Shown piece by piece: positions 1,409-30,782 of a stretch of DNA of 64,000 nucleotides. Position numbers and translations under genes: made by a program. Each line of letters begins with the position of its first letter. The stretch's first letter is position 1. The notes under the pieces were generated by a model. It was given only the letters and a program-made list of their open reading frames with translations, did not search any database and was not told the DNA's origin. Source of the stretch: Tubulanus polymorphus (taxonomy: Eukaryota; Animalia; Nemertea); contig NC_134029.1 of the NCBI RefSeq assembly GCF_964204645.1, positions 2,294,001-2,358,000 on the forward strand, given 5' to 3'.

Positions 1409-1433
1409 CCAACCAGGAACAAGCACAACGCAT
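1409..1433 (+). CDS. Candidate 25-nt micro-exon (xQPGTSTTH if it ends in phase 0)
   Basis: Long T-rich tract with gctaat branch-like motif, tgcag| acceptor and perfect |gtaagt donor; phase-compatible with the exon at 24661. Its assignment to that gene is inference. Confidence 0.45.
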
Positions 1434-2199: not shown

Positions 2200-2330
2200 G
2201 AGAATGAGATATGAGAGAGAGTGAGAGTGAGAGACTGAGAGAAAGAAAGAGGGAGAGAAGACGAGAGGAATATAGAGAGGGAGAGAGGGAGAGAGAGAGG
2301 GGGGATGAGAGGGAGGGAAAGGAAGAGGAT
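2200..2330. repeat. Imperfect GA/purine-rich low-complexity tract
   Basis: Almost pure A/G run (gagaga, gagggaga). Confidence 0.9.
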
Positions 2331-4147: not shown

Positions 4148-4236
4148 CTCTCTCCCCATCTCTCCTCTCTCTCCCCATCTCTCCTCTCTCTCCCCACCTC
4201 TCCTCTCTCCCCACCTCTCCTTCTCTCTCTCTCTCT
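4148..4236. repeat. CT/pyrimidine-rich tract with ~17-21 bp ctctccccatctctcct units
   Basis: Directly visible. Confidence 0.9.
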
Positions 4237-4258
4237 GCAGCCATCTCTGCTGTTGATA

Positions 4259-4345
4259 AGCCGCGATCACACGAGCATTCGATCCGTGCCAGCCTGATCC
4301 GTGCCAATTTGGCCGGGGCCGAATCAGCTCCGTGTGATCGCGGCT
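4259..4345. mobile_element. Short MITE-like element with 15-bp perfect terminal inverted repeats (agccgcgatcacacg)
   Basis: agccgcgatcacacg-agc ... gctc-cgtgtgatcgcggct; TA-rich flanks; internal gatccgtgcca duplication. Confidence 0.65.
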
Positions 4346-5729
4346 ATAGTCTCTATAGTCGAAAATAATCCGCAGACTTGTTCATCTCGACCGCCCGAAA
4401 TTAAAGTAAATTACAACAATCCCGAAGAGGCTGATGGGTAATCGCGAGTGCACCGTAAAATTCATCAATTATTGGAATTATTTCTGAATTGTATTTATGC
4501 ACCTGACGTACTGTCCCCTCGCTGAGGTTCGGTCTATAAACCCGCAAGTGTTACGCTCACATCGCTGTGGTCGGCCGTTTATATACGAGGACTAGTAAAT
4601 AATTACTCATACAACGTTGACACAGCAGGAGAACAAGATACGATTCTTAAGCGATGATCTTGATTTTGCTGATTTCTGAAGGTGTTGCTTCCTTTGACCC
4701 TCTCGCTCTCTCTCTATGTATATGATATTTCATTATATCCCGGAACGGACGACAAAATGATGATCAAAATAATCACATTTTGCCCGTCGTGTTTATCGAG
4801 GATTATTGTTTCAGATTGAATATCGACAACAATAACAATCTCCTTTCAACGCCTTCTTCAAACAATATCTACATTCTATCCTTGATTGAAAACGCAGAAA
4901 CCAGATCGTTTTCCTGATGATAACGATTTCTCTCGCGGCTGAAATTTATTAACATTTGTAGAAAGCTTTTAAGAATATTTACTAGAAACCAATTTGTATT
5001 TAATGCGTGACATTTTTATCCGAATAGGACACTAGGTAGAAAAACACATTTGAATATAATACGAAGACTTGTTTTTTTCGAAGGCAACCGAGTTGACTTT
5101 TTAAAAGCGTGATATACAGGTATAAAGTAGTCAGGTGTGGTATGATATGTGCGCGGCGGAAACACGAGTTTCACGCAGAGAGGGTATACTTGTATATATA
5201 ACGTTACCGTTTAAAAGCATCTTATTTCGGCCGGGAATCAGCACCGTCAACTGAGTCCCATTTCAATAAAACAGCCGCTACTTGTGCACATTAGCGACTG
5301 GTGAAACTGACTCATTTGTCACAGAGATGAGGACTTATTTCAATTAATACGTAGCGCGAAAAACTAACAGGCTCTTTCTCTCCTCTCTCCCTGCTCTCCC
5401 TCTCTCAACTCACTCTTTCGTATCGACAGTTCTGACAAAACGCATACCTTACGTCCTCAAAGTTATGGTTATCGGAGGAAACCTTTTTATGTATTATTTA
5501 GAAGGAAAATCTCATTTAGAAACTTCTAAAGTGTTCTTCACGGTGAACCATTTGGCTTTGAATTAATGATTAGGTTTAGCAATTTCTGAACACAGTAAAC
5601 CCACTCGATAGACGCTTAGTTTTTTCCTGGAATTCAGAACGTTGCCTTGTGCGATAGGTTTATATGAAAGTAGATTTATAAGTTTTATCCACGGCATCCT
5701 TGAGAAAATGGAACAATCCCGTATACATG

Positions 5730-5905
<176 letters not shown>

Positions 5906-8900: not shown

Positions 8901-10928
8901 TATATTTCATTAAGTTCCAACGGTATTGTGTTATTATGATGAGTGACACTAAGATTGTTCTTTAAAGCACCCCCAGTGCCATTATTTTAGGTTCGAATAT
9001 TCAATGTTCGAATATGAACTAATTTCATCTCTGAATTGAACTTAATTCACGAAAATCGAGACTGCGAGTCATACGTTTGTATAACTCCTTTGAACGTCAC
9101 ACGAGCTACACATTCCTTATCTTAGTTCGTCTAGTTTTCTAATTGACTTCGGTTTTTGTCGCGAACAACTTCAACATCGTTAGGAACGAAGAGTTTGTGA
9201 CATCGTTCACCGAGCTGGAAGACTCCAGACTCGAGATACGAATTTACGAAATGAAAATATGATTGATCAAATCGTAGATCGAAGTCGAACAAATTTGAGT
9301 CAAATTTCTCAAATTGCTCGTCCGTGTTTATCTGAGAAACAATCAATCAAAATTGACACGATTTGACATTTTTGACAAATCTAATTCAAATTCTCAATGA
9401 AATGAGTCTCTACTCACAGTGGTGATGCAATCACAACTGTCCCGTTCTTTATATCACAACGCTCTAAATCAACGCCGACCTCATTACAGCATTTCAATTT
9501 TTTTCTAGCCTTTTAAACGGTAATTTTTTTAAAAAGGATTTTTAAATCTTTTTAACGATTCTTTCCTCATTAAATATATCACTTTTATCTCTTAAGTATA
9601 TTCTTCCACGAACAAGGAAATTTTTCTCATTGTAAAACGTTCAGCCTTAAAAATGTAGAAAACATTTAGCAATTTAATCCAATCTTCTAATGAAGAAGAA
9701 ACAGAATCTTCGTAAAAAGCGATCAAAGCTTTCAATTCTTCAGACGTTATCTAACGAGCTTATTTAGATTGTAAAGAATGAAAAAAATTTGAATGAATTC
9801 AGCAATTTAATGAGGGGATGATTTTCAAAAATTCTAACATCTCGTTCAAAGCGAATTGAAGAGTAATTATGTTGAATTAATTTCTATGTAATCTTCTTTA
9901 TTAAAATGTAAATTACGAATTGGATAGAATGCCGCTGGTAAATCTGAAAGGTGTTTATTTCTTCACCGCGTATCGGTTACTGAATGAATATCTGTATGTG
10001 AGCTTATACCCAGTGACAGTAACTCTAAATCACAAAATACAATCCAATTCAAAAGATAAGTATACACGTGAACGCCTCAAGTCACGAACAATCCCTTTTT
10101 GGATCTTGCTTTGATGTGGATGTCGTTCGTTGTCATAGCCTGCGATTTATTAATTGTTACTCATATAATTTTTGATAGTATTCGCGGATTGAAGTTACCA
10201 CCACTGCGATAAGCTCACACAAGCTTAAAAAGAAAACATGACCATGTTTTAAACTCGATTCACTTTATTCACGATTGTTTGTCGTAGTGGTTTTGTTTGC
10301 CGTGTTGTTTGTTCTGAAGAGATGAGATAATGGTGGTGGTGATGACGTCTCATTCAGTAACATTTACTCCACATTTGTTTCACCCGTCGTTTTATTTGAA
10401 AATATCACGCGTTTCTTTTCAGGATTTTAATTTTGCCTCGTGCAGAGATCAGAAGTTGTTTGAATCAACAGAGCACGAGTAAAACCATACATATACTTTA
10501 AAGTATGGTTGACTTAAACTATTTATTGAGTATTTGGCCCCTGATGCGACCGCTTAGGGATAGCAAGCCTCAACATTCAACCAATGCTTCTACTGATGGT
10601 CGCTATATTATCTGTTACTATATTTGAGACATCGCATTTTAAGCGCACTATTACTTAGATCAGTGGTAAGCGAACACGCGATTCCGCTTGTCAGTTTTGA
10701 AACTTCCATAAAATTGGAAATATGTGTGCAAAAACTTCAATTGGTTATCCTGAAATCCGTCTAATATTTGGGTGTTTACGCCTCGAGTTACTATCGATAA
10801 TTATAAGGGAAATCTTTGAAGAAACTGTTTATATTTTCAATATTTTGATTCGATTAGAATCGTTCAACAGCAGCCGCTGCTAGTCATCAGTTTGCAGGTG
10901 ATATTTTGTTTTTCACTGAAATGTGAAA

Positions 10929-11003
10929 CAGCAGTACCAGCAGTACCAGTATACCAGCAGCACTAGCAGCACCACCAGCACCAGCAGCAGCTGCAGCCTG
11001 CTG
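10929..11003. repeat. Degenerate CAG/CAC trinucleotide repeat
   Basis: cagcagtaccagcag...caccagcagcagctgcagc. Confidence 0.8.
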
Positions 11004-11907
11004 TTGAGAGAATTATCGTCGATTTATTTTCGGCTCTTGAAACGACAGGATTTTTATCTCGGTTCACGCTTCGATTAGTCTTCTGTTTTAATTGCAGGTT
11101 GAAGCTTGAATCCGATAAAACAACAGTATTTAATTATCGGAAATCCATTTCTCGGTAGATCATACAGTGCTATATCCGTCCTAGTTTTCTCGTACATTGT
11201 CTTAGCTGGAAGTAATCTATTATCCATGTGAAAATCTGATATCCAAAAACGGTGGCGTCGGGTGGATTAATTTCTACACTCTCATCACCGTTAGAGCAGT
11301 GGGTGAGATTGGAATATTGTTTGCTACATCTTGTCCGCAATAAATAGCTTAAGTTATTAGATTAAAGCTTCATCGAATACAAAGTTTAGTTATGTTTTTG
11401 TAGACTGACCGCTTTTTTTAAAAACGAAATTGCGAATTGTGAAAAAAGAGAAAATATCTGAAACCGTCATAAATTACACTCAAATTTCAATGTCTCACTG
11501 TTAACGCCTATTCTCTTTATAAGACCGAATGTACTTAGCGAGTTTTAATGCGGTGTCCTTTTATGGATTTGAAGTAGTGATATATTACCGGCGACCCCCC
11601 GCAGTCGAGCAGAAGGTTTTACAGTCGGTATCAGTAAACTAGTGATTATCGTTGATTATCATCGCCCAGGATTTCAGTAGATTTATGGTTGGATATGGTT
11701 TTATTAGACTGTGATACGGAGTTACGAATTGACGAGCTCGCGTTTTACTTTGATCTGTATTTCACCTGCTGACGAGGTTCAAAGTGCTCGTAAAATATAC
11801 GAGTGACAAATTATTTCGCACAGTTTTGTTTTCTCGTGTGGCGATCATTCGACTGATACGGTTTTTATGATTAGGTCTATAAAATGCAGCTGCAAAGAAA
11901 CGATAAC

Positions 11908-12818
11908 TATACCTCGCAGGGGCCAGTGTATATACCTCGCAGGGGCCAGTGTATACCTCGCAGGGGCCAGTGTATACCTCGCAGGGGCCAGTGTATACCT
12001 CGCAGGAGCCAGTGTATACCTCGCAGGAGCCAGTGTATACCTCGCAGGGCCCAGTGTATATACCTCGCAGGGGCCAGTGTATACCTCGCAGGGGCCAGTG
12101 TATATACCTCGCAGGGGCCAGTGTATACCTCGCAGGGGCCAGTGTATACCTCGCAGGGCCCAGTGTATACCTCGCAGGGCCCAGTGTATACCGCGCAGGG
12201 CCCAGTGTATACCTCGCACGGCCCAGTGTATACCTCGCACGGCCCAGTGTATACCTCGCAGGGCCCAGTGTATACCTCGCAGGGCCCAGTGTATACCTCA
12301 CAGGGGCCAGTGTATACCTCGCAGGGCCCAGTGTATACCTCGCAGGGCCCAGTGTATACCTCGCAGGGCCCAGTGTATACCTCGCAGGGCCCAGTGTATA
12401 CCTTGCAGGGGACAGTGTATACCTCGCACGGCCCAGTGTATACCTCGCAGGGCCCAGTGTATACCTCGCACGGCCCAGTGTATACCTCGCAGGGCCCAGT
12501 GTATACCTCGCACGGCCCAGTGTATACCTCGCACGGCCCAGTGTATACCTCGCAAGCCCAGTGTATACCTCGCAGGGACCAGTGTATACCTCGCAGGGGC
12601 CAGTGTATATACCTCGCAGGGGCCAGTGTATACCTCGCACGGCCCAGTGTATACCTCGCAAGCCCAGTGTATACCTCGCAGGGACCAGTGTATACCTCGC
12701 AGGGGCCAGTGTATATACCTCGCAGGGGCCAGTGTATACCTCGCAGGGCCCAGTGTATACCTCGCAAGCCCAGTGTATACCTCGCAGGGACCAGTGTATA
12801 CCTCGCAGGGGCCAGTGT
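11908..12818. repeat. Minisatellite, 21-bp unit ccagtgtatacctcgcagggg (~43 copies, 20-23 bp variants)
   Basis: Head-to-tail units without spacers; accounts for the long overlapping ORFs on both strands. Confidence 0.99.
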
Positions 12819-13446
12819 TGCTCAAACTTGTGTAAATACAATCGCAGTCTTGCGTCTACGAGTGATAACAGCTGATCTAAAAACGTGTATCAGCGCTCGT
12901 CCAGTCAGTCGTACGTACCAAACGAGAACGGACTAACTAACGATAGTGTGAACGCACGGCTTAAGACCGTGATTAGTTCGTAAAAAAGGTCAAATAACTT
13001 CCTGCACGACGAGCCACGCTGCCTTCACGCGCGATCTCAACTATATAGCAATTCAATTTATTGATGAAGTTAATATAGGTAGGAACAGTATGGCGCAAAA
13101 ACGTTTCCCGGGTCGTTTCTTTGTAGCCGAGGTCTACCGGCGGAAATCAAATCGTCAGTTCAGTAATGAAAAATACCTCGCTGTTGATGTGTACGCGTAT
13201 ATATGTCTTGCAGTGTTCGAATTCGATATAAGATAAGTCTTGGCAAAGGGTGATTTTTAGCCGGCCTCATTTCCTTAAAATACAGCTCAGGCTAACTTAA
13301 TCAATTTCTTGGATTATTTCGCGCACAATACCACTTTGAATTCGGCCGAAATATGACCCGGAAAACGCACTGCGACATATTCCTCTGATATTTTTAATTA
13401 GGGTACCATCACAACAAAGTTCAAAGAACGCCGTTAATACTGTGTT

Positions 13447-13502
13447 TATGTGTGCGTGTGTGTTTGCGTGCGTGCGTGCGTGCGTGTGCGTGGTTGGGTG
13501 TG
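13447..13502. repeat. (GT)/(GCGT)n alternating purine-pyrimidine microsatellite
   Basis: gtgtgcgtgtgtgtttgcgtgcgtgcgtgcg. Confidence 0.85.
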
Positions 13503-16500
13503 ATTTCATTCATTAGTTAGGAAGCCGTTGTAGTAATGTTTAATTCATTATTTGTCCACAACTGTTTCTTGCCATGAAACCTTTTATGTTCAATCTCTCG
13601 GTTCGTTGTTTGTTTGGATTAAACAGCGACTGACCACCGTGGCTGCATCCATATCCACAAATTACACTCCCAACGAAAATTACTCGTTCGATTGTTTTTA
13701 TCACGAACTACAAACAGTCGAAATTGCTGTGTACCGAACTTGGAGGTTTTATCGAGTGCTCGCGATCTTATTCTTGAGAGAAAACTAATACAGCTGACGT
13801 AATATTGACTTTGATAGCGATATTGTTTGTGTTCATTAATAGTTTTAAGTGTTCAATTCATGGTCAGATGTTTAACTCGTTTTGACCAACTATTCTGATA
13901 TTTGATTCCACCGCTGACTTTATTTGTGCAAACTGGAAAAATCTGAAAATAGAGAAATTCGAACTTATGATCAATTTCCAAAGGAATATCGAGAGAACGG
14001 ATTACGAGTTTGAATCTCCTGTTCATAGTGAAAATTATTCATCATTTCACAACTAAAGGCGCTTTTTAGTGAATTTTACGGATGCATATTCGTGTATACT
14101 GATAATGTCCAAAAAGCCGCCGCAGCAGCCGCAGCAGCAGCAGCTACTATACTAGCAGTACGGAGAGATGTGATGATAAGGCATAAAACTCATTGCTTAA
14201 TTGGTAGATGATATAATGCGTTTATGTAAATTTGATGCAGGTCACTTTATGAAGCTCGTCGTGTATTTACGTTGACATTTACGAGTAATAGACCAATTCC
14301 CTGATGGAACCGTTTCCAAATTTAGTTAGTCAATATACTACATCAGTTTTGCAACATTTGCGAACGGCACTAACTGACTTAAAAAACACAAAGCTAATGG
14401 CAAACACGACGGCGCGCGGTCCACTGCTCAGATCGGTAGCAAATATTTAACCGGCTTTTACGATATTCAGTCGTGTCTTGCATCATGCGTATTAGGTTCT
14501 TCTATAGATGAAGTAATTTCTAATCCCGGTTTGAATCAGAGATAGAGCGACATAGAGAGAAAGAGAGAGAGAGGAGGAGGGTAGATTATAGAGTGTACTG
14601 ATTGAATGAATGCGTTCATCCCTCAGGATCAAATCCCTACATTGAAAATATGCATTAGAAACATGAAATACGTCGATTCTTTTTTAAAACATAACATCAG
14701 CGTCCCCGCGGTTAAAATCAGCTTCAGTTTATTTTTGAAAATTACGGGTAAAAAGTTCAGTGGAGATTATATTAGTAAATAGATACACTCAGAGTTGTGT
14801 AATTCCTCCGAGATTTCAACTGAAATGTCTTTCATTACTTCAATAAACTTTCTCTAATGGATGTTCTGATCAAACTGTATATTCTATTACTAAACGATGA
14901 TAAAAGTATCGTATTTTTCGATGTTTTTAATGTTTGATGCGAAAAGTTCTCTCGGGCTTCACATTTTAAGTAGACCTTGCCGATTGAAACGATTCTAGAA
15001 TTTAGTAATAGCCTTTTTGTAGCTTTAGCTTTTCAAATAACGATAGAAAATTCTGATTGAAAATACACATCGCTTTTTACCGCTATATGAATTCTTGTTG
15101 GGAAGATTTTTCGATTACCAAGCGGCCATGATCCATAACTCTTTCTAGCTCCTGTATCGGGGCGAGAAATGCGCTGCTGAACTCACCTCGATATGCGGGC
15201 GATTTTTGTCAGTAGCTAAATATCTATCGTATTTGATAGATAAGAGGCCCTGAAACTCAATTCTACTCCAGACATTCTACAATTTCAGGCAAAGCGCGGC
15301 ACCTGTTTATCGAGTCCCGATGTTTTTAGATGAAGAATTCATTATAGATTCATCGCCGAATTCGCAATCAATTTCTATCGTATTGTTAAACGTATCGATA
15401 ATGATACACGACCATAACAGCGATGATAAATGCAATTCACAGACAGTATCCTGATCATTGCTATATTATATTGCGCCATCACGAACAGTGAATATGTGTG
15501 ACAGATTAATTGAAAAGTGGGATTACGCCGTCGATGCCATATTTATGGAAATTCGGAATTTGCTCTCGAATCTTATACACAGTCGTTATCGCGCAGGCGC
15601 CACGAGTTCGAATATCGGTCCGATTTGAACAAATACAGCAGGATCGCAAACGTCATTAACGGCGGGTTTCCACGGATTAATCTTATCCTCTTTCGTTATG
15701 ATGGTAATTTGACCGAAGCCATCATTTTCAGACATACTTTAACATATGTCAGATTGGCACCAGTTAAATCCGAGTCCTCAAACGAATGACGTATATTATT
15801 GTTCTGAGTTTACAATCTTGTCGGAATCGTTTCATGTTATCATTTATAATATGTAATGCCTTTTTGGTGAAAAAGCTGCCCTCATCCTCGCCATTATATG
15901 GTCATATTAGTGAATGGTCATCACACCTATATGTACCTAGATTATATGATCGCCACATTGGCCGAACGAGGCTAACGTTTTAGAAAAGGTCTAACCTTTT
16001 GGTTATTTTTACAGCTAGCTGTCGTGGGGTACCTTTTTGTGGAAATTCCCCGTCTAGAAACAAGAACTATACCCTTGTAGAGTCTGATGTTCAGTCGCAA
16101 GCTGCATTTCTTAGATGGATTACGATCATATGCGTTCGTACTCAGTGTTGTTGATGACAAATTCAAAATTGCCTCTGGGACTGTTCATCTGTTACAGTAA
16201 AGAAATCGATCAGCCTAGTGCCAATAGCTTCTTAAATAGCATCCAATTTTGAGAACTCTCATAACCTCACTAAAATAGATTACCACACGTTTGAGAGTCT
16301 ATCGTGAGAATTAGAGGCAAAATATTGCCTCATAAATACAGTTTTGATTGCAGAGCGTGCTTTAGCATATAACCGGCACTGTATCCTAATACTGTGTTAG
16401 TCAGTTTCAACAAACTGCATGAGATATAGAAAGACCCAGTATTTATTAATTCGTTCAACTTGTCGTTGAAGTTTGTCGTCAACTTTTTCCTTATCTACGT

Positions 16501-19500
16501 GTATCGTTCAATAATTGTTTTTCTCGGTAAGACTTTTTAAACGTAGTTAGAGGAGTTCTTACGTCGATACTATACTAAGTGATATTCCATATGATAAGCT
16601 GTTTGAAATCTGATATATCGTTGAGATCCACGTTATGTAAATGTAGGCAATTAATCGTAAAAAATCCTCCATATTGCGCGTACTAATCATCAATATGAAC
16701 CGAGACACCGGATCATGAATTACCGAGATCCGTTATCAAACGAACTTACTTGGGTTTGTTGCATTCATTGCGCTTGGAAAATACTTTGTGCAACGACAAC
16801 AAAACTCGAATATTCCACGACGTGAATCCGATGATATCGTTGATTAGAAGAAGATATCTGTAAGATTGATTTTCAGAAATCCGACACTGAGGAAAAATTA
16901 CATTTGCTGTTTTTATCTTCTTTTTTTTAATCGTCTGAGATAAAACGTCGTGCGTCAATCTTTGTTCGATGTGAAACCGATATAGAACGAGTTCTTCGTC
17001 AACCTGATTAAAAAGTTTATATATATAGATACAGAACAACATAGCGAAAAAAACCTTTTCATTTTGGGAGTTTCTGGAAAGCAATTTTCAGCTTATCTCG
17101 CCCACTCTTTCATCAACTGGTGCGGTAACATTCGGTCATTCGCGAAAAGTATGACAAAAGATCACGGATAGAGACGCAAAAGCAACTTTAATCTGGTTTT
17201 TGATTTTGCCTTTAGCGGTTTTCTAGTCGACCTACAAAACGATTGCTCGCGAATATCATATCAAAGCGAGCTAATCAATTAGGTGATTAAAGCCAACGCG
17301 CAGATGAGGCGCATGAAACGATAGTTGGTTTAAAAACGATGGTTTTTCATTTTCCGCACGATAGACTTGGTCACAAAGCATGTCGGTTTTATTGGCTGAT
17401 GGCGTATTGATCAAGATCGTACAGCGAATCCCGAGGGTTTGAAACTTTCGATTGTTGTTCTACAGCGGACTAACCACAAACTCGCTCGCCATGTCGGTGT
17501 ATTTGTCTATATATTTAGATGCATAACCATCAATCTACAAAAGTCTTAAGTTCCATCTCAGACCCTACCGTAAATACCAATCGTTTCGTCTGCAAATAGA
17601 GCTAGAATTTCTAAATTTCGTCGGAAATTCCTAATTTCTAATTTCATGGTCAACGCATCATTAGTTTTGGTCGATGTAGAATTTTCGGCGTAAACGATAA
17701 GACGGTGATAATTCAGTACACGCCTGTTTAAAGATCGCCGGGAGACTCGTCACAGCTCCGTGTCAGCTTATGAAACTGTAGTTGAAAACTGTACCCTGGA
17801 CACCGATTGTCATCATTAAACGACGAACAAGGAGGCGAGTGCACAAGACACCGGCATGCAAACTAACCATCTTATTTGTTATTTCTCCAACCTATTTGAC
17901 GTACTGTATCACTGGTAGATCCACCAGGTGTTGGTCGGTGTTCTACGCTTCAATTTCCTTTACATTTCGATCAAAATCCAACCCATATTTCTCGTAAGTT
18001 AATCAGCTTTTTTGTATTTTCAATGGTCCAGTACGAGGTATAATATCGTGGTGGTTTTCGTGCGCTAATGAAACGTTACAGTCATCAGATTGTTGATGGT
18101 GTCCTCGCTAGTTTCCTGCGCAGTCGCGAGTCCATTAAGCCGATAGTCAACGATTTCATTATTAACCATCGCGAGGAAAAAATACGTCATTGTGTTTTCT
18201 GATTCGTGATGCAGGCGGCATAGTAAAGTGATTTTCTGTCAGAGTGCCTATCCTGTCGTATATCTTCAACATTTCCTGCAGCACAGTCGAGACAGACATG
18301 TCTAATCGAGCAGCTCCGCGCGGTTCGTTCCTCCTACAATTTACTGCCTGAAATTTCCTAGTTTGAGTCATTACTCGAAATCACTTCTTATTTCCTTCGT
18401 GTCAGTTATCAAGGGTTTATTGTCGAGAAATATTTTTGAAATCGTATATCGTTCAACGGTCCTTGATACAGAAAAACCTGCATACCTTCCAAACCGGATC
18501 CTTTAAGACCCGTAGGTGAAAATCACTTTTATCAAAAGACTCGAGCCTAACTGACTCTGATATCCTGACTATTATATCCTGATACTCGAATCTACTTTTT
18601 AACCATTTACGTAATAGTGTTTCTTTCCTTCGAGAATGTGATTACCAAAGATGGGATTAGACAGCTAGTAATTATCAGTGACTGTGTGATATGTTATTTG
18701 TAAGAGTTGGTCCAGGTGATTTACTGTGTTGTGATAATGGGGGGTATTTTCTCTGACGTTCAGACGGACGCTATATACTCTATGTAAAGACCAATTAGCC
18801 CTACTCACCGCGGTAAATATATACGACGTATAAGCCAATAATTGAAGCGTCGGTTTTTATCATCATTGTTAATTCAGGTCCCTATATCAACCTGTATATG
18901 TGCGAGGAATGTCAGTTGATACACAATGTCACGGACATTTCATGGTCAATTCTTTTTAATCATCGTTTCGTCGGTAACTCGAAAATATTGTGTTTTATGG
19001 CCATTTCGAGTTATTCAGAGGCCGCAGTTCGTCGAAAATTGGCTTTATCTAAAGATTAAAGAAAAATTCTATGGTCAGTTAGCCACTGATAAGCTGCAAT
19101 CTCCCACGAGTTCAGGTATGATTTGTGTTATCGTTTACCGGTACTTTACAATTGATTCCCTCCGAGTCAATAATTCTTTTTGTTCAATATTTATTTCTCG
19201 CTCATAGAAATCTATTCTTACAAATTCTTTTAATTAGTATCATATGACTGGCTCACAATGCCCGTGTAGGTTTTTTCATCATTCGATACACTGGAATATC
19301 GCAGCAAGAAGTTTGAAATATCAGACACTGGTGAATTCATAAGGACGCACTGTCTGTGCTGTGTGGGTGTGAAGGTGTTATTTCATGCTATTTTACAGCC
19401 AGTTTCTATAGTCATAAATTGCCTGAAATTCGAACCGTTTCTCTCAATCTAAACGCGAATAACGGCTGCAGTTATAACCTTTTCACCGGTTCATGTCGGC

Positions 19501-20256
19501 ATCGAATGACTCAATAAAATTAATGAAAATAAATTTCTATCCTTTCTAATAAATCTGTCTCGCAGTTCACCGCTGGAATGTCCATTTATACAGTCGAGAG
19601 TCTCTAGTCTTCGAATAAAACTGACTTAGTTTATTCGAGGAAATTATTGGTAGAAGATGTTAGAACAGAATAACTTCTTATCTCGTCCAATTAAAGAACT
19701 GATTTAAGTACTCGTTAGTCAGTTTGTTTTTGATTCAAGTAGGAATCTTTAATTGTTTTCTTTGCAGTCTGCTATTGCTGTATAGGGATAATGCTTTATA
19801 GTATGATATATAGTCTAGAGATGCTTCGTTTTGTATGTTTGTAACAATAGAAATGACGATAAAAATACCTTAAAAATCGATGATTTCGATTTGACGACAG
19901 GTGTTGGAGTACGATTTGGATATACAGACATCTTTATGGTCGATACTTGCTCGTGAAATATCCATCTAATGCTAGATGAATATTCATCGCTATATCTGCT
20001 GCTGGCATCATATAGTTATCTTTCTTCAACATCTGCCTTTAAAAAGGATTATTTTTAATCTGATATCAAAGATTTATAACCAGCTGTTGCGACCGGCGGC
20101 TTTTACAGAGCGGTTTGTCGCTCTATCTCGAAGCTTAATCGATTTGTGCCGCTGTCTGCGGGTTTTTGAAATGATGTTTTCGGTTTCATTGCGACGTCGC
20201 GGTTTAGAAAAATGATTCGGCGAATCATAATTAAAGATGACGCTGGGTTGACTGAT

Positions 20257-20419
20257 TCGACATGGCGCTGGGGTGTTCGAGTCGAGATGGCGCTGGGGTG
20301 TTCGAGTCGAGATGGCGCTGGGGTGTTCGAGTCGAGATGGCGCTGGGGTGTTCGAGTCGAGATGGCGCTGGGGTGTTCGAGTCGAGATGGCGCTGGGGTG
20401 TTCGAGTCGACATGGCGCT
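20257..20419. repeat. Minisatellite, 25-bp unit gatggcgctggggtgttcgagtcga x6.4
   Basis: Near-perfect tandem copies. Confidence 0.98.
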
Positions 20420-23400
20420 AGGAGAGATAGCCGAATCGATAGATTGATCGCTATTTCGCAGTCTGCACCGAACTGTGTATTAAACGCATCGGAGCCCAGT
20501 CATCACTGATCAGAAAAACCGTATGCACCGAACATAAATAGTGAAAGGCAATTTTCTTCATTTCTTCGTTCGGTATTTCATTCGACGCATGATTTGATTG
20601 CTATTTATTGTCGTCCCATGACTATAATAGCAACAGCAGCACTAACCGCTGAGTTAAAGAGCTTCGTCCTGATTCGAGTCAGATTGACTCGTGAGACCAA
20701 TCTACACCGTTTATCTTCTGTTTTATCATTGATATTTCAATTCATTTGATGATCCTCGGCGGCTAAAGTAAAACCGATGTCCCGGGTTGGATTTGTCGGC
20801 GATTGTTTGTCGTGCGCTTGAGAGTCTTTTCTATCGAGTTTTAAAGTTATAATTCTTGTTTTTACCGATAAAACACTTTCCATCTACGCGATGACTGACG
20901 AGAGGTTTCCTTTTTTTCTCCGAGTTGAAACTTTGAAACGGAATTGATTTCTCAATAAACATTTCCCTCAGTTTTCGATTCGACCCGAACTATTTCATTT
21001 TGCCATTAGTTGCAAGAAAGGTAAAACGTTAGACAAAAGGACTAAGAACACCGGGACTAATGACGTAAACTAGGAATTGCACTCTTGTAGGCATTCGTTT
21101 CAAGGACTCTCCGACTTTCTGCTTTATCAAATTCCCCATTCCCGAGAAACTGACTAAAATAATGAACGACAGATAAATGATGGGTGACTAAACAGGCCTC
21201 GGATTAAGCCAAAGGTCAAACTGAAATCGCATTCAACGGATGCGTCCGAGTAGAACCACTACGAACGGAGAGTGGCCATAAACAGCGAATAAACTAATCC
21301 ATCAAATATGATATGGCCACTTTATCAGCTTCGTCGCAAAAGTGCATTACGTCGTCTTCATCGTCTGTCATTGAGACATCAGATGGACCGAGCTATAAAA
21401 ATTGGGGATCTATATTTATGACTGGCGACAATATCTTGTCATCGTGGCCAGCAGTCGAATGCGAGCGTCATCATCACGATGGTCGTGTGTGGTTAATGTT
21501 TATAACTAGTGTGATTTAATGAACGCTTTGCTGTTGTGTCCACTGCTTTTATCGGCAATAATTTTCCCCCCGGGTGAGGATTAACGCGCTGCTACACGTA
21601 CCTGTGTCCAGCCATACAGGAAATGAAAAATATGTAAATATCCTCGCATTATGAGGTGCGGCAAATGTTGGTAGAGATTCAGTAATACTCAATCATATCG
21701 ATGGCGGTGGTGCAAGCGGGTTCCAGCCCCGGTATCGTTACAGCTATTCGGGCGGCAATATGGGTGTTAACCGGTATGTTGTTTATGAACGGTGAAACGA
21801 GCGAACAGTTGTGTGATAAGAATAACTAAAGACGTTATGAATATGATGAAATCGTTTCATTCTTGCAAATGATATCTTCTGCTGCTACAAACACCTCTCT
21901 CGCCAACAAACTTCTTCGCAATCGTTTTGATAATAAATACACGCGTGACTTACAGTAAATACTAGTAACATGTGCGGATACATTTCTACTACTTTAGATT
22001 GACATTAGAATCGTGTTCATTCCCGATGTTTTAACCCGGACTTGTTTGAACCCCAAATCTAAACTCACAACTTTAGAACTGATTCCATTGGTCAAGTTTC
22101 GCAAACAAGCCAACTGAAAAAATCTTTGGTTCAGTTGCTATTGAAAAATCTATACTTTCATTATCGGCAACAGTTTAGACTTAATCCGTTTAACTCTAAC
22201 TTTTATTTTAACTTTAACGTTATTTGACAAACTTAATATTGACAATCATGAGCGGCATAACATTACCAGCGAAATGTACAACTCTTTTATGACACCGGGC
22301 TCTGAATTCAATTTCAATCGAGAATGATCGAGTCTTTTTCGCCAAAGAATCTAACCTTAAATCTGAGTCATGTTAATCGCCTTCGTAGTTGATTAAACTT
22401 ATTTTACAGTTGAGTCAAAACCGTTTCTACCGTAACTTTCAGCAGTTTCAGAGTAATTTCAGTGTTTTTCATGCATAGCTCATTGTGGATTCAGGGTGAG
22501 ACTGGCGGTTTATAATTCCCATGGTCCGTCACCGGTCTCTGTGTGCACGCCGTTTATATTTCAAATGTGTTGATGAAGTATCGAAGCTCGGTTCTTCTCA
22601 CTGGAGACATGCTAACTAGCATTCGCACGAATTTAGAAAATTGCTTCTCGCTCATGGCGTATGCGAGGCGGTTTATTCTTTTGCTTCAGACGATTTTTGT
22701 CACGCAATTCGTCCATATAATAAGCTCATTTCGAGCTCGGGTACCTGTAACGACGAAGCAGTAACGTTGTCGTCACGATAAAATTGCAGAAGTACAAACC
22801 GGTTCAGCTGGGATTTAGATGTCAAATAATAACTATGCGCAGAACAGGGCTAGATTTCGCGCAGAAAGTTACAGCGGAGGAAAAGCAAATTGAAAACGGT
22901 TCTGGTGGCGATGAGACTCTCTCTCTCTCTCTCTTACTGGTGTGACACACGCTTTAACAATGTGCCAGCAGAGAAGAAGACAGATGAAGAATATATTTCT
23001 ACGATGTCTTTGGCAATGTTCACACGACAACTCATAATTGATTTTGCTTGTTTCGCGCGCTGATGCAGCGTATTCACTTTTCAATCCCGGCAGAAGTAAC
23101 CGCTGTTCACAGATTCGTATTAGACTCGTCGAATGTTCTCCAGTAAAACCCGCCGTTTAAAAATCGGATTACTTTTATAGCGGTAGAATTTCTGCAATGG
23201 CCGGAATATCATATCTAAAAATGGGCTTTCACTAGTAATCATTTGAAAATGGAAACCAATTTGAATAGTACTGTATTAGGTTATCGATTTTGGAATTTAT
23301 CGGATTCCTTTAACCCGCTTAGCCTGACCTTGACCGAGTTAAACTAGAACTCATCTTTTCATGTTACCGATGATATTTTGCAGATAAGACGCTTACAAGA

Positions 23401-24226
23401 TTTTGAAAGGTTGTTTTATTGTTTTATATCCAGAGATGTCTTTTATACCCAGTTCCACAGTTTCCAAAAAAGTTCACGTCTATTGTTGGGAAAAGTGAAA
23501 AATTAGACGAAGTTTGATTACCACATCCTGGATGGAACTTTCACGAGTGTGCCCCAGTTTCCTCTAGACTACAGGAAGAGTATAATGTTTGATAGGTTAA
23601 ATCGAGCTGTACTGCGCCACGGCAATCAGACAGAAGAGAAAAAACCCTATGACCGCTAGATATCAATTTGATCATCTGCGTGGCGTCGGCGATTGCTGTA
23701 ATCATGAATGTGGCTTCACTAGGACTCGTCGCTGATTGAAATCACATTCATAAGCTAACAATGCAGAAAATTGACCGTAATGGCACCAAGAACTATACCT
23801 AATATGACTGTCATTGACGGTAGAGTTTCAGCGTGGACGATGCGACCTAACTGGAGACCGTATTCGACTACATCAATCATCAGCTTTATTTGCGGTCGAC
23901 AGTGCATGCGCCGCTCAATGATTCGTTATCGCTGATGATTTCAGATATAATACTCTCTCAGCTCTCGCCAAATGTTCCCCATATTTGATTGGATTCCCGA
24001 ATGGATTTAGTCAGCGGGGAATTTTTTTAAACGTCTCAGCGGTCAACTGCAGCGGGATCCTGTACGGGGAGGGAAGGGGGAGAGGGAGGGGGTATTAAGG
24101 GTCGTTTGTTTGCGGTACGATGACTGAGCGTGAACTGGTCATCGCCGGAGTCCACTATTCACAATGAGACCGAATTGAATAATTCGATCAAAAACCGACT
24201 AAGCTCCTAACAATGGCGATATGGTG

Positions 24227-24275
24227 ACTTCCGGGTCCTGTCGTGTAAATCAATGACGTCATATCGATCACGTGA
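24227..24275. promoter_or_regulatory. Promoter-like motif cluster: ETS (ACTTCCGG), CRE (TGACGTCA), USF-type E-box (TCACGTGA)
   Basis: Three perfect 8-mers within 49 bp (24227, 24254, 24268), with a G-tract at 24066-24092 upstream. Confidence 0.5.
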
Positions 24276-24660
24276 CTAAGACACACAGCCACTCGCTCCT
24301 AAAACATCGGGGAACTTTTTAGAGAAAATCAGAATATTAGATTTATTTTTCTAACTGAAAACTTTTGGTTCGCGCCGCTAATGATCATACATCGATTAGT
24401 ATCGAATACATTTTGCGATGTCTCAAATGATAGCGCACTTAATAAGAGGCATAACGCGCGCGCTAATGCGACTTGAAAGTGAAAACTGATTGAGGCTTAA
24501 CAACTAAAAATTGATGCGAAATGAGCCCAATTTAATGATCGGAAAACACTTCCTCGCCACGCATTCATATTCGGACGCGTTCGTTGCGCATTTTTCTGTC
24601 AGTTCTTTGTGTATTTTTTTCGTTCTAATTGACATCATGTGCGTTCGTTATATTTTGCAG

Positions 24661-24762
24661 CGCCGACGCACGTTCAACTTATCGACAAACGGCACTACGG
24701 AAAATCAGTCAACGTATGACAACCAACGTACGGCTATAAAGAACAAACAGTTTGAGATGCAG
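24661..24762 (+). CDS. Internal coding exon (phase 0-0, 34 aa RRRTFNLSTNGTTENQSTYDNQRTAIKNKQFEMQ) of a putative protocadherin-like cytoplasmic tail
   Basis: Acceptor tattttgcag| preceded by a pyrimidine tract and a ctaat branch-like motif; donor CAG|gtaagg; 102 nt open frame that splices in frame to 26888. Confidence 0.7.
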
Positions 24763-26887
24763 GTAAGGTCAACTGGTCACTACAACTGATACTTGTCGTA
24801 TTGACTGTGAACATGTCACAGTAGTATTGTCAGAAAAAAGAGCACTAGTCCACTGGCCCCAGGGGCACCAATTACCAAAACGTTGATTAAACCACCAGAA
24901 CCCAATTTCCACAATTTTGGCTTAGATTTTGACTCTGGCCTTGTTGAAAAATTGGAAATGTACTAATTATAACTCTGATAACTTAACCGACAACCGATGA
25001 TGCAATTTAAATCGTCACTATGTCAACACTATCCACTATAGTGAACTCTGGGCAACTGGCCCTGATTTTCTAAACTCACATTACCTCATCATCCTCATTC
25101 TCCTCACGAATCTATTTTATTCTCTAAACGGAGCTGTTATCATCATTGTGTCGATGATATTGAGATAGTTGGATCTCCGATCTCAATAATTCAAACAGAG
25201 AAACGATCAGGTCACTGTGATAAAAAAGAAAGGCTTTTAGCCTTAAAACTTGCTACAAATCTCTGTCGTGGTCTATTGCACTGGTGCAAAATGGGAAACG
25301 TATTTTTCGATTTCATTAGCTGCATATTTTTGAGTTAAGACCTAACTGGGAGTTAGAGCTAATTTTCACTGCTTAGAGATAACTGAACAAGTTCACATGG
25401 CAAGGTGTGCGCTTTTATGCCGCATCTGTTCCAAGGTTACTGATATAACCACAAGAGCATCTTTAAACTGAAATTCATTAATTTACTACTGCATAATTCA
25501 CATCTATTTTGTCTTTTGATCAATCAAGTCTCAAAGGCAAAACTGCACCGCTGTCTATGTGACTGTCGACTGGTGTCTTTCTCAATTACTCACGATCCGA
25601 CTTCCCGCGTCTCCAGATGATTTTAATGTTTGAAATCGCCGGCGGCGTTTGAGAAATTTAAATGATGAATGTAAATAGCTCGTTCCTTTGAACCTTGCAA
25701 GAAAATTCACCGCCTTCAGCCGGCTTCCACGAACGCGCTACCGAGATGGGCTTAATGAGGATGAATTGTAGACGATCTCTTAATTATCGCATTCGGTGGA
25801 AATTGAGCTGTGAGTGTTGCGAATCTAAGACGATCGCTGATCGAAAATGAAGCCTTATTCAGTCGATTTCACCGACTCAATTCGTCGGATATCCATCGGA
25901 TAATTATCTGATTTTTCACCGGCCGGTCGTTAACTATATCCCGTACTGTCTAAGACCCTGCGGGCAGATAGACGACTGGATCATGACCGGGACACAGTGA
26001 ACACATATATTGCGACGTAGTCAAAATCGCTCTTTTAAGACTGGTCTTAAGTTTCATTTTAAAAATGGTCTTAAGTTGTCAGATTGGCAGTATCACCCTG
26101 GCCTTAAAGTTACTAATGTGCAACTTATAACTGAATTATGTTGCCTTACGCAGTTGCTTAGAATTACGATATATTTCTACAAATATATTCCAGAACACTG
26201 GACTGAATCTAACTCTGTTCGAAAACAGTCAACTGTACAACTGGATCATGTGTCACTCTGTGTTGGGCATTCTTCAGTTATTTCCAAGACATCACAAGAT
26301 ATCCTCCAGTTCTAACTCGCCAGTTCTATGCATCACAATCGTGTACATCGTCATTATCCATCGAGTCGATGCCTGCTTTACCTTCCTATCGATTTCTTCA
26401 TGATCTGGGAATATCATCTCTGAATGGCTTACTAAGCCAATACAACCTAAAAACCTGTATAAATATCTGTGCTGTTTTTAACGTATCCGCGCTGTATTTC
26501 ATGCTGCAACGATATAAAGATCCTGAAATAACAGCAGATCACCTCGACTAATGATAAGAGTAATCTTTGGGAGAGAACCGCACGCACTGGGCAGCCACCA
26601 CGAAAAACCATTTGGTCACAAGTAGTTTGTCCTTCTCAAAACTAAATTTGTGCTCAAGTTTCCGGAGATACTAATATTTTTATAAGCTTTTTAATCTTTT
26701 ATAGATGCTGACTATACAGGATCAGTTGATTGATCTATTCGATGTATTTATACCTGAGTGTATACCGCAGAGATCCTCATATAGAAGGAATCATCTGACC
26801 ACCCTGTTGTATACGGCGATCAGTAAAGCTTTGATCGAGTCCAGCAAAAGCGTGTTTAACCAGTTCGTTTACGTTGTATTCTTACAG

Positions 26888-27068
26888 TTGATCGAGCAGT
26901 TAGAAAACAACAAATTACTGAAGCGTATCTGTGATAGTGAAAGTGAAACATCCACAAACCCGAGTAGTTTAGCTGATAGCGGACAGGGTGGCAGTGTAGA
27001 TGATTGCAGCAGTAAACATGCTGCATACATGCTCAGTGTTGCCCAGCCTCCTTTAACCACATTTAAAG
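26888..27068 (+). CDS. Internal coding exon (phase 0-1) LIEQLENNKLLKRICDSESETSTNPSSLADSGQGGSVDD...TTFK, protocadherin-like cytoplasmic motif
   Basis: Acceptor ttgtattcttacag|, donor AAG|gtaaat; 181 nt. The D-x-E-S-E...DSGQGGS-x-DD motif resembles the DSGRGGS motif I recall from invertebrate protocadherin tails (recalled, not searched). Confidence 0.75.
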
Positions 27069-28002
27069 GTAAATAGTAAATTCCTCTCGTAGCCAAAATG
27101 GAGAGGGAGGAGGGTGACTTGGAGCTTTCGATTTAGGGGGGGGGGGGCGACCGAGGCCTACAAAACAATAAATCTTCTCTGTCTTTGTATACATGTTTAT
27201 TTTCCTAGTATAATCGAGACCACAAGCCACAGATACAACCTAAAAACCTGTATGAATATCCGTGCTACGATATTTAATAAAGATACCATATCAAAATGTT
27301 ACTCGACACTAGTTTACTAAATAGCCCTTTGAGAAAACTCATTCATGATCGGAGTTTGTGGCCTAGTTTGAAACTTATCTTTTACGTATCCCGATATTTG
27401 AAACGTCGAACCGAAGCAACGACAGGCTTCATTAGCCTTGAATGATCGTTACTTTCCAACCGCTAGAAAACATTTGAATTAATCATGAAAACTGAGGAGA
27501 GGAAAGTTTTCTAAATTGATAAATTCACTGGTTTTTGTGTTATAAGTTTTACCGGCAAATTAATCAAGACTTCATCAAACTGATCGACAGGATAACAATA
27601 CGCCCTGGTGATGAGTTATCTAGTTTTCATTCAAATTTTTATCGCTATTTGAGTCATTTCACAAAAACCGTCTCCGCTGTCCCTCGCAATCACAGTCTGC
27701 TAGACCGGTGTTGATTACAGTCGATAATATGAGATGAAAAAATATCATGTCGTATTCCCCACGAGATGAACGGAAAGTTTGTTTTGGAAAAAACCTCGAG
27801 CTTTCGACGGAAAACCTTTTTTTTTCGATTATCAAGTGTGTAATGTACGATACTAGTATACAGAAAAAAACCTCTAAGTGTAGTAGAATAGTGCTATAAT
27901 CCCCGAGATAGAATAACAGCCGCTTTTTGTCCGCTATACAATAAGGTTTTTTTCTCTTCTTGTTACTTAAAACGTTGTATGTTTCTTTCTTCTCGCAAAC
28001 AG

Positions 28003-28403
28003 GAGAATGCGTCAGCGGAACCCAGGTGCCTTGGATGTCATCATCAACTATAGACATTAAAAACGTCAAAAACAGATTTACATCGTCAAAGTTCGACAAA
28101 CTCGAAGAAGCTTCACCAAATTTCGACAAGGAAAATAATAAATGCCTTCGAACTAATCTGCATTCTCAAACTCGTGCTGTTCCGAATAAGCCAACGGTGG
28201 ATACTTATTTTAATATTAATCGTCGATATTGTGAAAACTCATTGTCACAGAAGAATCCGGGGCTCGAACCGTCTCAGTCCGACGGTCGCGCGACCCTGGA
28301 TCGTGTCGTCACAGATTCTTCGTCATCTTCATCGAAACAAGGCTTCGTGGACGCCGAAAAGTTATGCCACGATATTCAGTCTCTGTTTTTTACCGATGTT
28401 TAG
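28003..28403 (+). CDS. Terminal coding exon (G)ECVSG...VDAEKLCHDIQSLFFTDV* of the putative protocadherin-like gene
   Basis: Acceptor gtttctttcttctcgcaaacag|; phase 1 matches the upstream exon (G+GA = Gly); stop TAG at 28401-28403. A Ser-rich run is followed by LCxxIxxLFFxD, and the C-terminal T-D-V fits a class I PDZ ligand. AT-rich UTR-like sequence with AATAAA (28730) follows. Confidence 0.75.
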
Positions 28404-30169
28404 ATATAACACCGAACAATGAGTCGCTTGTGTACGCTTTCACTCCTCCACACACTACACCCAACACATAGAAATCATTGAAGTTGAAAGTTTAGCGAAT
28501 TTTCTACTGGGAAAGAGACTTTCGTATACAACAGATACTCGTGAGAAATTGTGCTCTGGTGAAGAATTCATTTTAATGAAATAGTTCGTGTACAAAAATG
28601 TAAAGATGCCGCCATTGTTTTTATATCTGTTTCATAAGTATGTGAGAATCAGTAATAGTATAATGTAGTCACCGATGAAATAATATTCAAGTGGAGAATA
28701 ACAGTCGAACTCACTTATAGTCGTCGTATAATAAAATTATCCGATGACGGCTTAATCGAGTTTGACCAGTGATTTGAGTGATAGGAATGAACTTACTCTA
28801 AACACACACACACGGGAATATTACAATATTTTTATAGTTGCCCAAATTAGTAATAGAAATAGTCGTAATGATATAATAACGCATTTCGAACGTAAACGAG
28901 AACTAATTTGAATAACCAAAATATAAAATGATCTCTGATTGGCCCTATCATCAAGTATATATCGACCAATCAGATTACAATGTTTAGAATTTCGTACTTA
29001 TTTCATGGTTCCGAAACCAATATATGTATGATGACTCGGTATATCGCTAAAACCGCGAGCTGTTTCGTCAGAGATTTTGTTCATACATTTCGTTGTTATT
29101 ATCCCTTTGTTGTCATTCTTGGCCCGGGGCTTGTATTTTGTTATTTTCAGCCAGAAATGCAGTCCTACGGCAAGCTGAACGAGAGAAAAAATATTGTATA
29201 ATAATTATCCAATATTGACATATATTGATTTCGAAATTATTATCGCTATTCTCTTTAAATTGATAGTGAATTTTCAACTGTGCATTGATTGTCTACATCT
29301 AAATAGTAAAAACATCATCAGTAAAAATAGAGAGAGGGAAATAGATCATTGCCGATATCTGAAAGAAACTTTTCTTATCGAATGACGTTTTCACTTACAT
29401 GTGTGGCTTATTATCATTTCATCTCTCGCGTTGTTAAATCAAACCTGTTTAATCGGCATCGCGGATAAAAAAGACCCGCGCTGAATCAGGTTTGACCTAA
29501 AATGTTAATTGTTTTGTGTTACGATGTATACCATCTGTAGTTGATTCATGACAATGTAGGCACTTGTTTATTAGGTTTAGAGCACCTGTTGGATTAATTC
29601 CAACTATACACCTTTTATTCATCTCACAAAAACCGCCGAAGTCGACAGTAACAGTGTGATATTAGTTTGTACATTTTTAGCCCAAATTCGAACAACGGAA
29701 TTATGGCCATGTTTAATGAACTATATCTATGAACCGCTATTTAATCTTCCTAATCCACTATCATCTGAGCTGTGTATATTATATATATCTAGCAGCGACG
29801 ACGCATGTGACGGGTAAATAAAAATCATACAAATTTGATAACTACTGAATCATAAAGTGATTATATTAAACCCATTTCGAGATTGGTTTATCCAGTCGCA
29901 TGGTTGGAGAATACTCGCTGAACCACACATGAGTTGTGTACGGTATTTGCGGCTTAGTTGACTAACTTGACGACGGCGCGTGAGACCGCGATTTTGCGAC
30001 TGTGGAGTTTGTCAGGCTCACCATGACAACATCATGACTACCTGTCACAGTTTGACAAGGATAGATAACAGACGGACATTCGTATATGAGACTTTAAAAA
30101 AATGTCTTTTTATCAGTGCCGTGGCTTATCTATAGACAACCAGTGGAATAACATTACTCACAGCAGCAG

Positions 30170-30527: not shown

Positions 30528-30782
30528 TATAGAAACATCCTTAAACTGTTTAGATTTGTTGTCATGAATCAACGTACCTATTGAATAATGTTTTCTTTTC
30601 AAGACGAATTTTCGGGATTGTTTTTTGAAGATTAATTTTATAAAGTAAACAAATCACGTGAAATGTGAAAATTCTAAGATTAAAACACCACACAAACACC
30701 GGTCGCTATCTACAACTAACGTATTTTTTATATCGGTTAAAATATTCAAATAAGAACAATTGTGAATAAATGTTGATGAACA

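What the first reader, a model, noticed from the sequence alone, without database searches (positions are those of the whole stretch)
24661..28403. Protocadherin-like cytoplasmic exons with no ectodomain nearby: candidate 'constant region' of an invertebrate variable/constant protocadherin locus
Seen: three exons with good splice sites and matching phases give a ~227-aa hydrophilic tail with DSGQGGS, a Ser run, LCHDIQSLFF and C-terminal TDV. No cadherin-repeat or other long non-repetitive ORF exists in the 24.6 kb upstream. Knowledge: vertebrate clustered Pcdh-alpha/gamma loci splice one of many large variable exons (ectodomain plus TM) onto three shared constant exons, and protocadherins expanded independently in some lophotrochozoans. 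The motifs match my recollection of lophotrochozoan Pcdh tails. Inference: this may be the shared tail of a tandem variable-exon array left of the window, i.e. a convergent neuronal identity code.
Basis: partly seen in the sequence, partly recalled or inferred. Interest (0 to 1): 0.8.

Follow-up and report, generated by a model that had tools for sequence, protein, structure and literature searches.

The report
Ordinary ribbon-worm protocadherin tail exons
These three exons encode the inside-the-cell tail of one already annotated ribbon-worm protocadherin (a cell-adhesion protein) whose front part lies outside the window, and because its sister proteins carry tails of their own this is likely an ordinary duplicated gene with a long intron, not a shared constant region like that of the vertebrate neuron barcode genes.

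Summary
The three exons splice in frame to 227 aa that are identical to residues 906-1132 of RefSeq XP_074650256.1, a protocadherin of the nemertean Tubulanus polymorphus with seven cadherin repeats. Its first 905 residues are not in the window, which implies an intron of at least 24.66 kb.

The constant-region reading is not supported. Only 1 of 108 candidates carries exon 3, and no other of 190 fetched proteins shares a 12-mer with the tail. Five Tubulanus protocadherins, on contigs of one length, form a single clade. Two paralogues have complete tails of their own, about 30% identical to this one. A third probably has its own first tail exon. One (XP_074650258.1) stops inside the membrane helix and is the only candidate orphan exon. 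The large-exon/tail boundary and the tail motifs recur across lophotrochozoan protocadherins.

No upstream DNA or RNA was available, so unannotated variable exons are not excluded (about 7%). The scan's index holds no look-alike of this protein.

The parts
1..24660 (+). 3' part (at least 24,660 nt) of the inferred long intron between the ectodomain/TM/juxtamembrane coding region (residues 1-905, outside the window) and tail exon A; no cadherin exon in it
   Evidence: that the upstream part is a single exon is inferred from relatives
24661..24762 (+). Tail exon A, 34 codons, residues 906-939 of XP_074650256.1, phase 0 to phase 0
24763..26887 (+). GT-AG intron, 2125 nt
26888..27068 (+). Tail exon B, 60 codons plus 1 base, phase 0 to phase 1; carries the DSGxGxS motif (residue 969)
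27069..28002 (+). GT-AG intron, 934 nt
28003..28403 (+). Tail exon C, coding part with stop; Ser run, LCxDIxxLFF motif (residue 1120), C-terminal TDV
   Evidence: (100% identity over 132 aa)
28404..28735 (+). Candidate 3' UTR up to the first AATAAA (28730); five more AATAAA/ATTAAA hexamers follow before 31500; true end not shown
   Evidence: no RNA data

Best explanation
The three exons encode the last 227 residues of an annotated seven-repeat protocadherin of the ribbon worm Tubulanus polymorphus, and they likely belong to one self-contained gene whose likely single large ectodomain exon lies over 24.6 kb upstream and which likely arose by whole-gene duplication. Shown: splice sites, frame, identity to XP_074650256.1, signal-like N-terminus, six DxND linkers separating seven repeats, one TM helix at about 801-823, at least five paralogues in one clade, and separate tails in paralogues. 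Inferred mechanism: one promoter drives the large exon, which is spliced across the long intron to exons A, B and C. The protein would act as a calcium-dependent homophilic adhesion molecule through antiparallel EC1-EC4 contacts, as vertebrate protocadherins do, probably in the nervous system. The polar tail is likely disordered and would signal through short motifs: a KEVSF site at residue 868 (upstream exon; likely PP1 docking, by analogy to the delta-1 RRVTF motif), DSGxGxS in exon B, and the C-terminal LCxDIxxLFF segment and TDV end (a possible PDZ ligand; consensus recalled). Diversity would come from a handful of full genes and from alternative tail exons, not from promoter choice among variable exons.
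For: Only 1 of 108 candidates (232-2000 aa) matches exon C, and its 90% cluster has 1 member. A second ectodomain on this tail would be 50-60% different over 900 residues and would form its own cluster with a 100% match; none was found. No other of 190 proteins shares a 12-mer with the tail. Paralogues P0002 (XP_074650219.1) and P0013 (XP_074650417.1) have full tails of 289 and 233 aa, 30% and 31% identical to this one, against 61% and 57% in the head. The tails are homologous (z 8.9 and 11.3; 0 of 300 shuffles). P0014 (XP_074651639.1) continues past the junction with T, not the V of a GT read-through, and its first residues resemble exon A in a junction-anchored test (2-30 of 3000 shuffles against P0001+P0013). 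The five Tubulanus proteins are one clade (SH-aLRT 100, quick tree), sister to the Lineus protocadherin (99). The same boundary is used elsewhere: Lineus isoforms X1 and X2 differ by a 39-aa insert exactly there, and metagenome gene call P0021 reads into V there. 17 of 18 representatives over 1000 aa carry DSGxGxS, including Lingula, Patella, Sinanodonta, Tegillarca and Biomphalaria proteins. A TM/juxtamembrane search returned 6 of 133 candidates, none a tail-less read-through Tubulanus model. Cephalopod protocadherins expanded by full gene duplication, without shared final exons (PMC9068888, passage).
Against: The DNA upstream of the window was not available and no RNA holder was listed, so the case rests on automated RefSeq models that could miss variable exons or rare splices. 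Two of five Tubulanus models lack a complete tail. P0090 (XP_074650258.1, 833 aa) stops inside the TM helix, and its accession is two numbers from ours. P0014 lacks both tail motifs. Its exon-A likeness was not significant in the first, unanchored test (466 and 219 of 2000) and was weaker against all four references (24-165 of 3000); the anchored test was chosen afterwards. The intron of at least 24.66 kb is over ten times longer than the two downstream introns, and no cadherin hit lies in the 35.6 kb downstream, as would be expected at the 3' end of a cluster. The protein searches rely on shared words, and one search listed only 120 of 887 hits.
Confidence: 0.88

Rival explanations
1. The exons are a shared constant region. 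Two or more large ectodomain exons upstream (the annotated one plus P0090's or unannotated ones), each with its own promoter, would splice to 24661, as in vertebrate Pcdh-alpha and -gamma.
For: Three tail exons behind a long cadherin-free intron. Five paralogues on contigs of the same 24,873,478-base length. P0090 has no tail and a neighbouring accession number. In other species, 23 of 25 representatives of 880-1000 aa lack the DSG motif and 19 of these 23 show an E/Q-V pattern consistent with reading into the intron, so annotation often leaves tails off and could hide shared tails.
Against: One protein only carries the tail. Two paralogues have full tails of their own and a third probably has its own exon A. 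P0090 as annotated stops about 90 residues before the junction and could not splice in frame. No Tubulanus read-through model turned up. Only five paralogues were found, 49-61% identical in their first 800 residues, far from a barcode-sized array. The best-studied spiralian expansion uses full genes (PMC9068888).
Confidence: 0.07
2. The exons are real tail exons, but the automated model joined them to the wrong ectodomain across the long gap. They would belong to another, nearer or decayed copy such as P0090's gene, or be driven as a tail-only transcript from the promoter-like motif cluster at 24228-24275.
For: Very long intron relative to the others. ETS, CRE and E-box motifs within 48 bp, about 390 bp before exon A. 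P0090 lacks a tail.
Against: The annotated head ends at the family's conserved junction, at residue 905 against 906-918 in relatives, in phase 0. No cadherin remnant lies in the 24.66 kb. All three exons are intact, and none of the 40 listed variants fall in them (2.7 expected if uniform; weak, as cover in X2 and X3 is patchy).
Confidence: 0.05

Closest known systems
RefSeq XP_074650256.1, protocadherin-11 X-linked-like, Tubulanus polymorphus (P0001)
   Same: The 227-aa spliced product is identical to its residues 906-1132.
   Different: Nothing in the coding exons; it is a computed model and its RNA support could not be seen.
Lophotrochozoan protocadherins: Lineus longissimus XP_064636437.1/XP_064636438.1, Lingula XP_013413109.1, Patella XP_050417189.1, Biomphalaria KAK0064798.1
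   Same: Lineus: six linkers and TM, junction at residue 906, KEVSF, DSGRGGS and LCxEIxxLFF. The others share the DSGxGxS and C-terminal LCx[DE]IxxLF-type motifs.
   Different: The Tubulanus tail is divergent (33% to Lineus). Paralogue P0002 keeps the Lineus-like exon A start (0 of 2000 shuffles). Tubulanus has at least five copies where one Lineus gene was found, which is not a full census.
Coleoid cephalopod protocadherin arrays (Albertin et al. 2022, PMC9068888; passages read)
   Same: Lineage-specific expansion by full gene duplication of multi-exon genes on one chromosome.
   Different: 168-288 genes there, five found here; the Tubulanus clade is a separate branch sister to Lineus (no named cephalopod sequence in the tree); tandem order not known here.
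Vertebrate delta-1 protocadherins (PCDH1, 7, 9, 11X/Y; PMC7339444, PMC3752934, bioRxiv 10.1101/2021.09.21.460794; passages read)
   Same: Seven EC repeats, isoforms that differ in the tail, a basic-V-x-F motif like the PP1-binding RRVTF, and a very long intron (182-kb duplication within PCDH11X intron 2).
   Different: KEVSF is juxtamembrane and in the upstream exon. CM1-CM3 were not aligned here. Orthology is not claimed; the names PCDH11X-like and gamma-A5-like are automatic best-hit labels.
Vertebrate clustered Pcdh-alpha/gamma (PMC7339444, PMC7811963; passages read) and chelicerate sDscam (PMC10084454 passage; PMC4835542 search listing only)
   Same: One large ectodomain/TM exon followed by three small tail exons.
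   Different: Six ECs there, seven here. Many variable exons share the tail there; here one protein carries it and paralogues have their own.

Membership tests
Protocadherin | Six or seven extracellular cadherin repeats | tested here: met
   Pfam PF00028 six stretches plus an N-terminal cadherin-like domain; six DxND linkers and a seventh domain before the TM
Protocadherin | Single TM helix and a tail without the classical cadherin cytoplasmic domain | tested here: met
   Hydropathy peak 3.13 at residues 802-803; no Pfam hit on the tail of the full protein; the three exons give only DUF3460 at E=0.23
Protocadherin | Ectodomain and TM on one large exon | not testable with these tools
   Upstream DNA not held; supported in relatives by single-ORF gene call P0021 and the Lineus isoform boundary
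Protocadherin | Calcium-dependent homophilic binding | not testable with these tools
   Inferred from PMC10084454 passage
Lophotrochozoan protocadherin lineage | KEVSF, DSGxGxS and C-terminal LCx[DE]IxxLF motifs; groups with other lophotrochozoan protocadherins | tested here: met
   (DSG in 33, basic-x-V[ST]F in 51, LCxEI in 12 of 77 sequences, many of them fragments or truncated models)
Clustered variable/constant locus (Pcdh-alpha/gamma type) | Several different ectodomain exons spliced to the same tail exons | tested here: not met
   At the level of public protein models only. RNA-level test not possible
Clustered variable/constant locus (Pcdh-alpha/gamma type) | Paralogous ectodomain exons lack tail exons of their own | tested here: not met
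   2 of 4 paralogues have full own tails, 1 probably has its own exon A, 1 has none
Clustered variable/constant locus (Pcdh-alpha/gamma type) | Tandem array of variable exons, each with a promoter, upstream of the constant exons | not testable with these tools
   None in the 24.66 kb held; the rest is outside the window
Clustered variable/constant locus (Pcdh-alpha/gamma type) | Six EC repeats | tested here: not met
   Seven repeats
Clustered variable/constant locus (Pcdh-alpha/gamma type) | Stochastic promoter choice in single neurons | not testable with these tools
   No expression data
Vertebrate delta-1 protocadherin | Seven EC repeats | tested here: met
   definition in PMC7339444
Vertebrate delta-1 protocadherin | Conserved motifs CM1, CM2, CM3 (RRVTF) | not tested
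   No vertebrate delta sequence was aligned. RRVTF itself is absent: exon A begins RRRTF, and KEVSF is the only match to the recalled RVxF pattern after residue 780. Likeness of DSGxGxS to CM1 is recalled.

The most novel reading that the evidence does not exclude
Within a small Tubulanus protocadherin cluster made mostly of full genes, at least one extra ectodomain exon (the tail-less XP_074650258.1 model, if its stop is an assembly or modelling error, or an unannotated exon) lies upstream of or inside the long intron and splices onto 24661. That would be the first spiralian protocadherin locus with a shared constant region, caught at an early stage, and convergent with vertebrate Pcdh-alpha/gamma.
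Probability: 0.07. Interest if true: 0.75.

Novelty: already known. Interest (0 to 1): 0.12.

Why it matters
As it stands it matters little. It is an annotated gene, and it adds one more small, lineage-specific protocadherin expansion by whole-gene duplication, the mode already reported for cephalopods. I found no paper describing the nemertean set (searches; judged from listings except for the papers named). A true shared constant region would matter, because published work states that cephalopods do not splice variable first exons to shared final exons (PMC9068888), and among invertebrates a promoter-choice layout is described for chelicerate sDscam (PMC10084454).

Tried and rejected
No whole genome is held, so the upstream 50-500 kb could not be scanned. 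No RNA holder was listed. The three runs laid on 22000-32000 gave no joint at the exon boundaries: X1 covers introns and exons without a break as DNA would, and X2 and X3 are patchy; this is no evidence on splicing. A lay on 1-20000 was not made. The metagenome scan gave 1 locus of 266 candidate stretches, a 35% identical partial cadherin ORF (L001), uninformative. A test of whether the last nine residues of P0090 are a frameshifted TM gave a run of 4 compatible positions, reached by 598 of 5000 random peptides: inconclusive. Unanchored local alignment did not show P0014's post-junction residues to be homologous to exon A; only the later anchored test did (one of eight read-through controls, 9 aa long, reached 44 of 1000, the others 184 or more). 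The careful tree did not finish; the quick tree was used, on the first 830 residues of 26 chosen proteins. Shared C-termini among 190 proteins were found only in cadherin-23 records, isoform or near-duplicate pairs and one fish clustered pair, none among different lophotrochozoan genes; that library keeps one protein per 50% cluster, so this is weak. The squid shared-exon idea that I recalled was wrong by PMC9068888. PMC4795812 was not held. Pfam hits at 46910-47428 (Nsp2_AV, Tudor_3) fall on a tandem repeat and were rejected. No structure or complex prediction was run, as it would not bear on the question. No supplements were read; those of PMC9068888 may list spiralian gene counts.

Full report
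Observation. Exons 24661-24762, 26888-27068 and 28003-28403 have AG acceptors, the first two have GT donors, the junction phases are 0, 0 and 1, and the joined frame gives 227 hydrophilic residues with DSGQGGS, a Ser run, LCHDIQSLFF and terminal TDV. A six-frame motif scan found no DxNDNxP cadherin linker anywhere in the window. The 150 longest of 191 upstream stop-free stretches matched no Pfam family.

Identity. Exon C, searched against proteins of 232-2000 aa, matched 1 of 108 candidates, at 100% identity: P0001, 1132 aa, named protocadherin-11 X-linked-like of Tubulanus polymorphus, accession XP_074650256.1, alone in its 90% cluster. Tubulanus is a palaeonemertean ribbon worm. The spliced peptide equals residues 906-1132 exactly. 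tblastn places only those residues in the window, so residues 1-905 lie upstream of base 1 and the intervening intron is at least 24,660 nt. The head has a hydrophobic N-terminus, six DxND linkers and a seventh domain, one TM helix at about 801-823, and KEVSF at 868.

Is the tail shared? At the level of public protein models, no. A second ectodomain on this tail would be a separate cluster with a perfect exon-C match, and none appeared. No other of 190 fetched proteins shares a 12-mer with the tail. Four further Tubulanus protocadherins appeared among the 120 listed of 887 hits, all on a contig of the same 24,873,478 bases; their positions are unknown. P0002 and P0013 have full tails of 289 and 233 aa with their own DSGRGGS and LCxEIxxLFF motifs. 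These are 30-31% identical to this tail while the heads are 57-61% identical, and they are homologous to it (0 of 300 shuffles each). P0014 has 57 residues after the junction and lacks both motifs. They start with T, not the V that a phase-0 GT read-through gives. They resemble exon A in a junction-anchored test (2-30 of 3000 shuffles against P0001+P0013, 24-165 of 3000 against four references) but not in the unanchored test run first (466 and 219 of 2000). P0090 (833 aa) stops inside the TM helix; whether that is a frameshift was inconclusive (598 of 5000). A search with the TM/juxtamembrane region found 6 of 133 candidates, with no tail-less read-through Tubulanus model among them. In a quick tree of 26 chosen ectodomains, the five Tubulanus proteins form one group (SH-aLRT 100), sister (99) to the Lineus protocadherin and a close metagenome relative. 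This is the pattern of whole-gene duplication within the lineage.

The layout is the family default. The junction falls at residue 905-918 in all full-length relatives examined. Lineus isoforms X1 and X2 differ by a 39-aa insert exactly there, and the single-ORF call P0021 runs into V at that point. A profile of TM plus tail found 72 representatives. Of the 69 new ones, 17 of 18 over 1000 aa carry DSGxGxS, while 23 of 25 of 880-1000 aa lack it, and 19 of those 23 show an E/Q-V pattern consistent with reading into the intron. Of ten looked up, six carried species names: Lingula, Patella, Sinanodonta, Tegillarca, Solemya and Biomphalaria. The truncated models cut both ways: they mark the conserved boundary, but they also show that annotation often drops tails and could hide shared ones. 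Papers (passages read): one long exon for ectodomain and TM is a feature of protocadherin genes in general (PMC10084454; PMC7811963). Clustered loci are defined by variable exons with six ECs on three shared constant exons, and delta-1 genes have seven ECs with tail isoforms (PMC7339444). Cephalopods do not splice multiple first exons to shared final exons but duplicated full genes, and other spiralians have only a handful (PMC9068888). PCDH11X intron 2 can hold a 182-kb duplication (PMC3752934). Passages of PMC6339937 and PMC9795677 were also read; the second added nothing.

How it likely works. One promoter would drive a large exon that is spliced over the long intron to exons A-C. The product would be a calcium-dependent homophilic adhesion protein binding through antiparallel EC1-EC4 contacts, as described for clustered and non-clustered vertebrate protocadherins. 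Its polar tail likely signals through short motifs. KEVSF fits the recalled RVxF pattern and parallels the PP1-binding RRVTF of delta-1 proteins. The C-terminal T-D-V fits a recalled class I PDZ ligand. None of these functional steps was tested, and neural expression is assumed from relatives.

What could not be tested. No genome is held, no RNA holder was listed, and the runs laid showed no splice joints. Unannotated variable exons further upstream, or rare splices from P0090's exon, are therefore not excluded. The long intron, the absence of cadherin hits in the 35.6 kb downstream and the neighbouring accession of P0090 keep that reading alive at about 7%.

Prior work. The scan's index has no protocadherin note in this genome and no look-alike of the protein. 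Notes on other genomes describe octopus arrays and other variable-first-exon loci; they were not used as support. Paper searches showed no description of nemertean protocadherin gene structure in their listings.

Verdict. The exons are real and correctly recognised as a protocadherin tail, and they are already annotated. They most likely form an ordinary gene with a long intron in a small paralogue family. Interest 0.12.

Noticed in passing
window 24228-24275: ETS (CTTCCGG), CRE (TGACGTCA) and E-box (TCACGTGA) motifs within 48 bp, about 390 bp before exon A; the window holds only 5, 4 and 2 of these. Possible enhancer or internal promoter; the motifs were chosen by eye from recall.
   Followed up: partly
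window 26705-26887 (+): A pyrimidine-rich AG at 26704 is followed by 61 open codons in frame with exon B and could be an alternative acceptor adding 61 aa. Of 3 variants in another sample, 2 are silent; 6% of upstream positions have as long an open run, so the case is weak. Not in the RefSeq model.
   Followed up: partly
window 54718-55467 (+): One uninterrupted ORF of the LHFPL/TMHS tetraspan family (Pfam PF10242, E=6e-52, whole profile). Recalled: vertebrate LHFPL5 partners the cadherin PCDH15; the neighbourhood here may be chance.
   Followed up: partly
window 36999-37070 (+): tRNA-Glu(CTC) gene.
   Followed up: no
window 11908-12818: 21-bp minisatellite, 43 copies, open in all six frames, inside the long intron; a 25-bp repeat lies at 20235-20419 and 27/34-bp repeats at 30170-30527.
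   Followed up: no
window 26036-26088: Short high-copy interspersed element in the intron after exon A; summed depth 2346 against about 25 in run X1.
   Followed up: no
window 37021-37287 (+) and 52213-52458 (+): Weak Pfam hits: ADD_DNMT3 (E=7e-06, at cut-off, in a stretch that begins inside the tRNA) and Bestrophin (E=0.003); possibly exons of other genes or noise.
   Followed up: no
proteins P0090 and P0014 (outside the window): Two Tubulanus paralogue models are truncated, one inside the TM helix and one 57 residues after the junction; they may be pseudogenes, incomplete models or short isoforms.
   Followed up: partly
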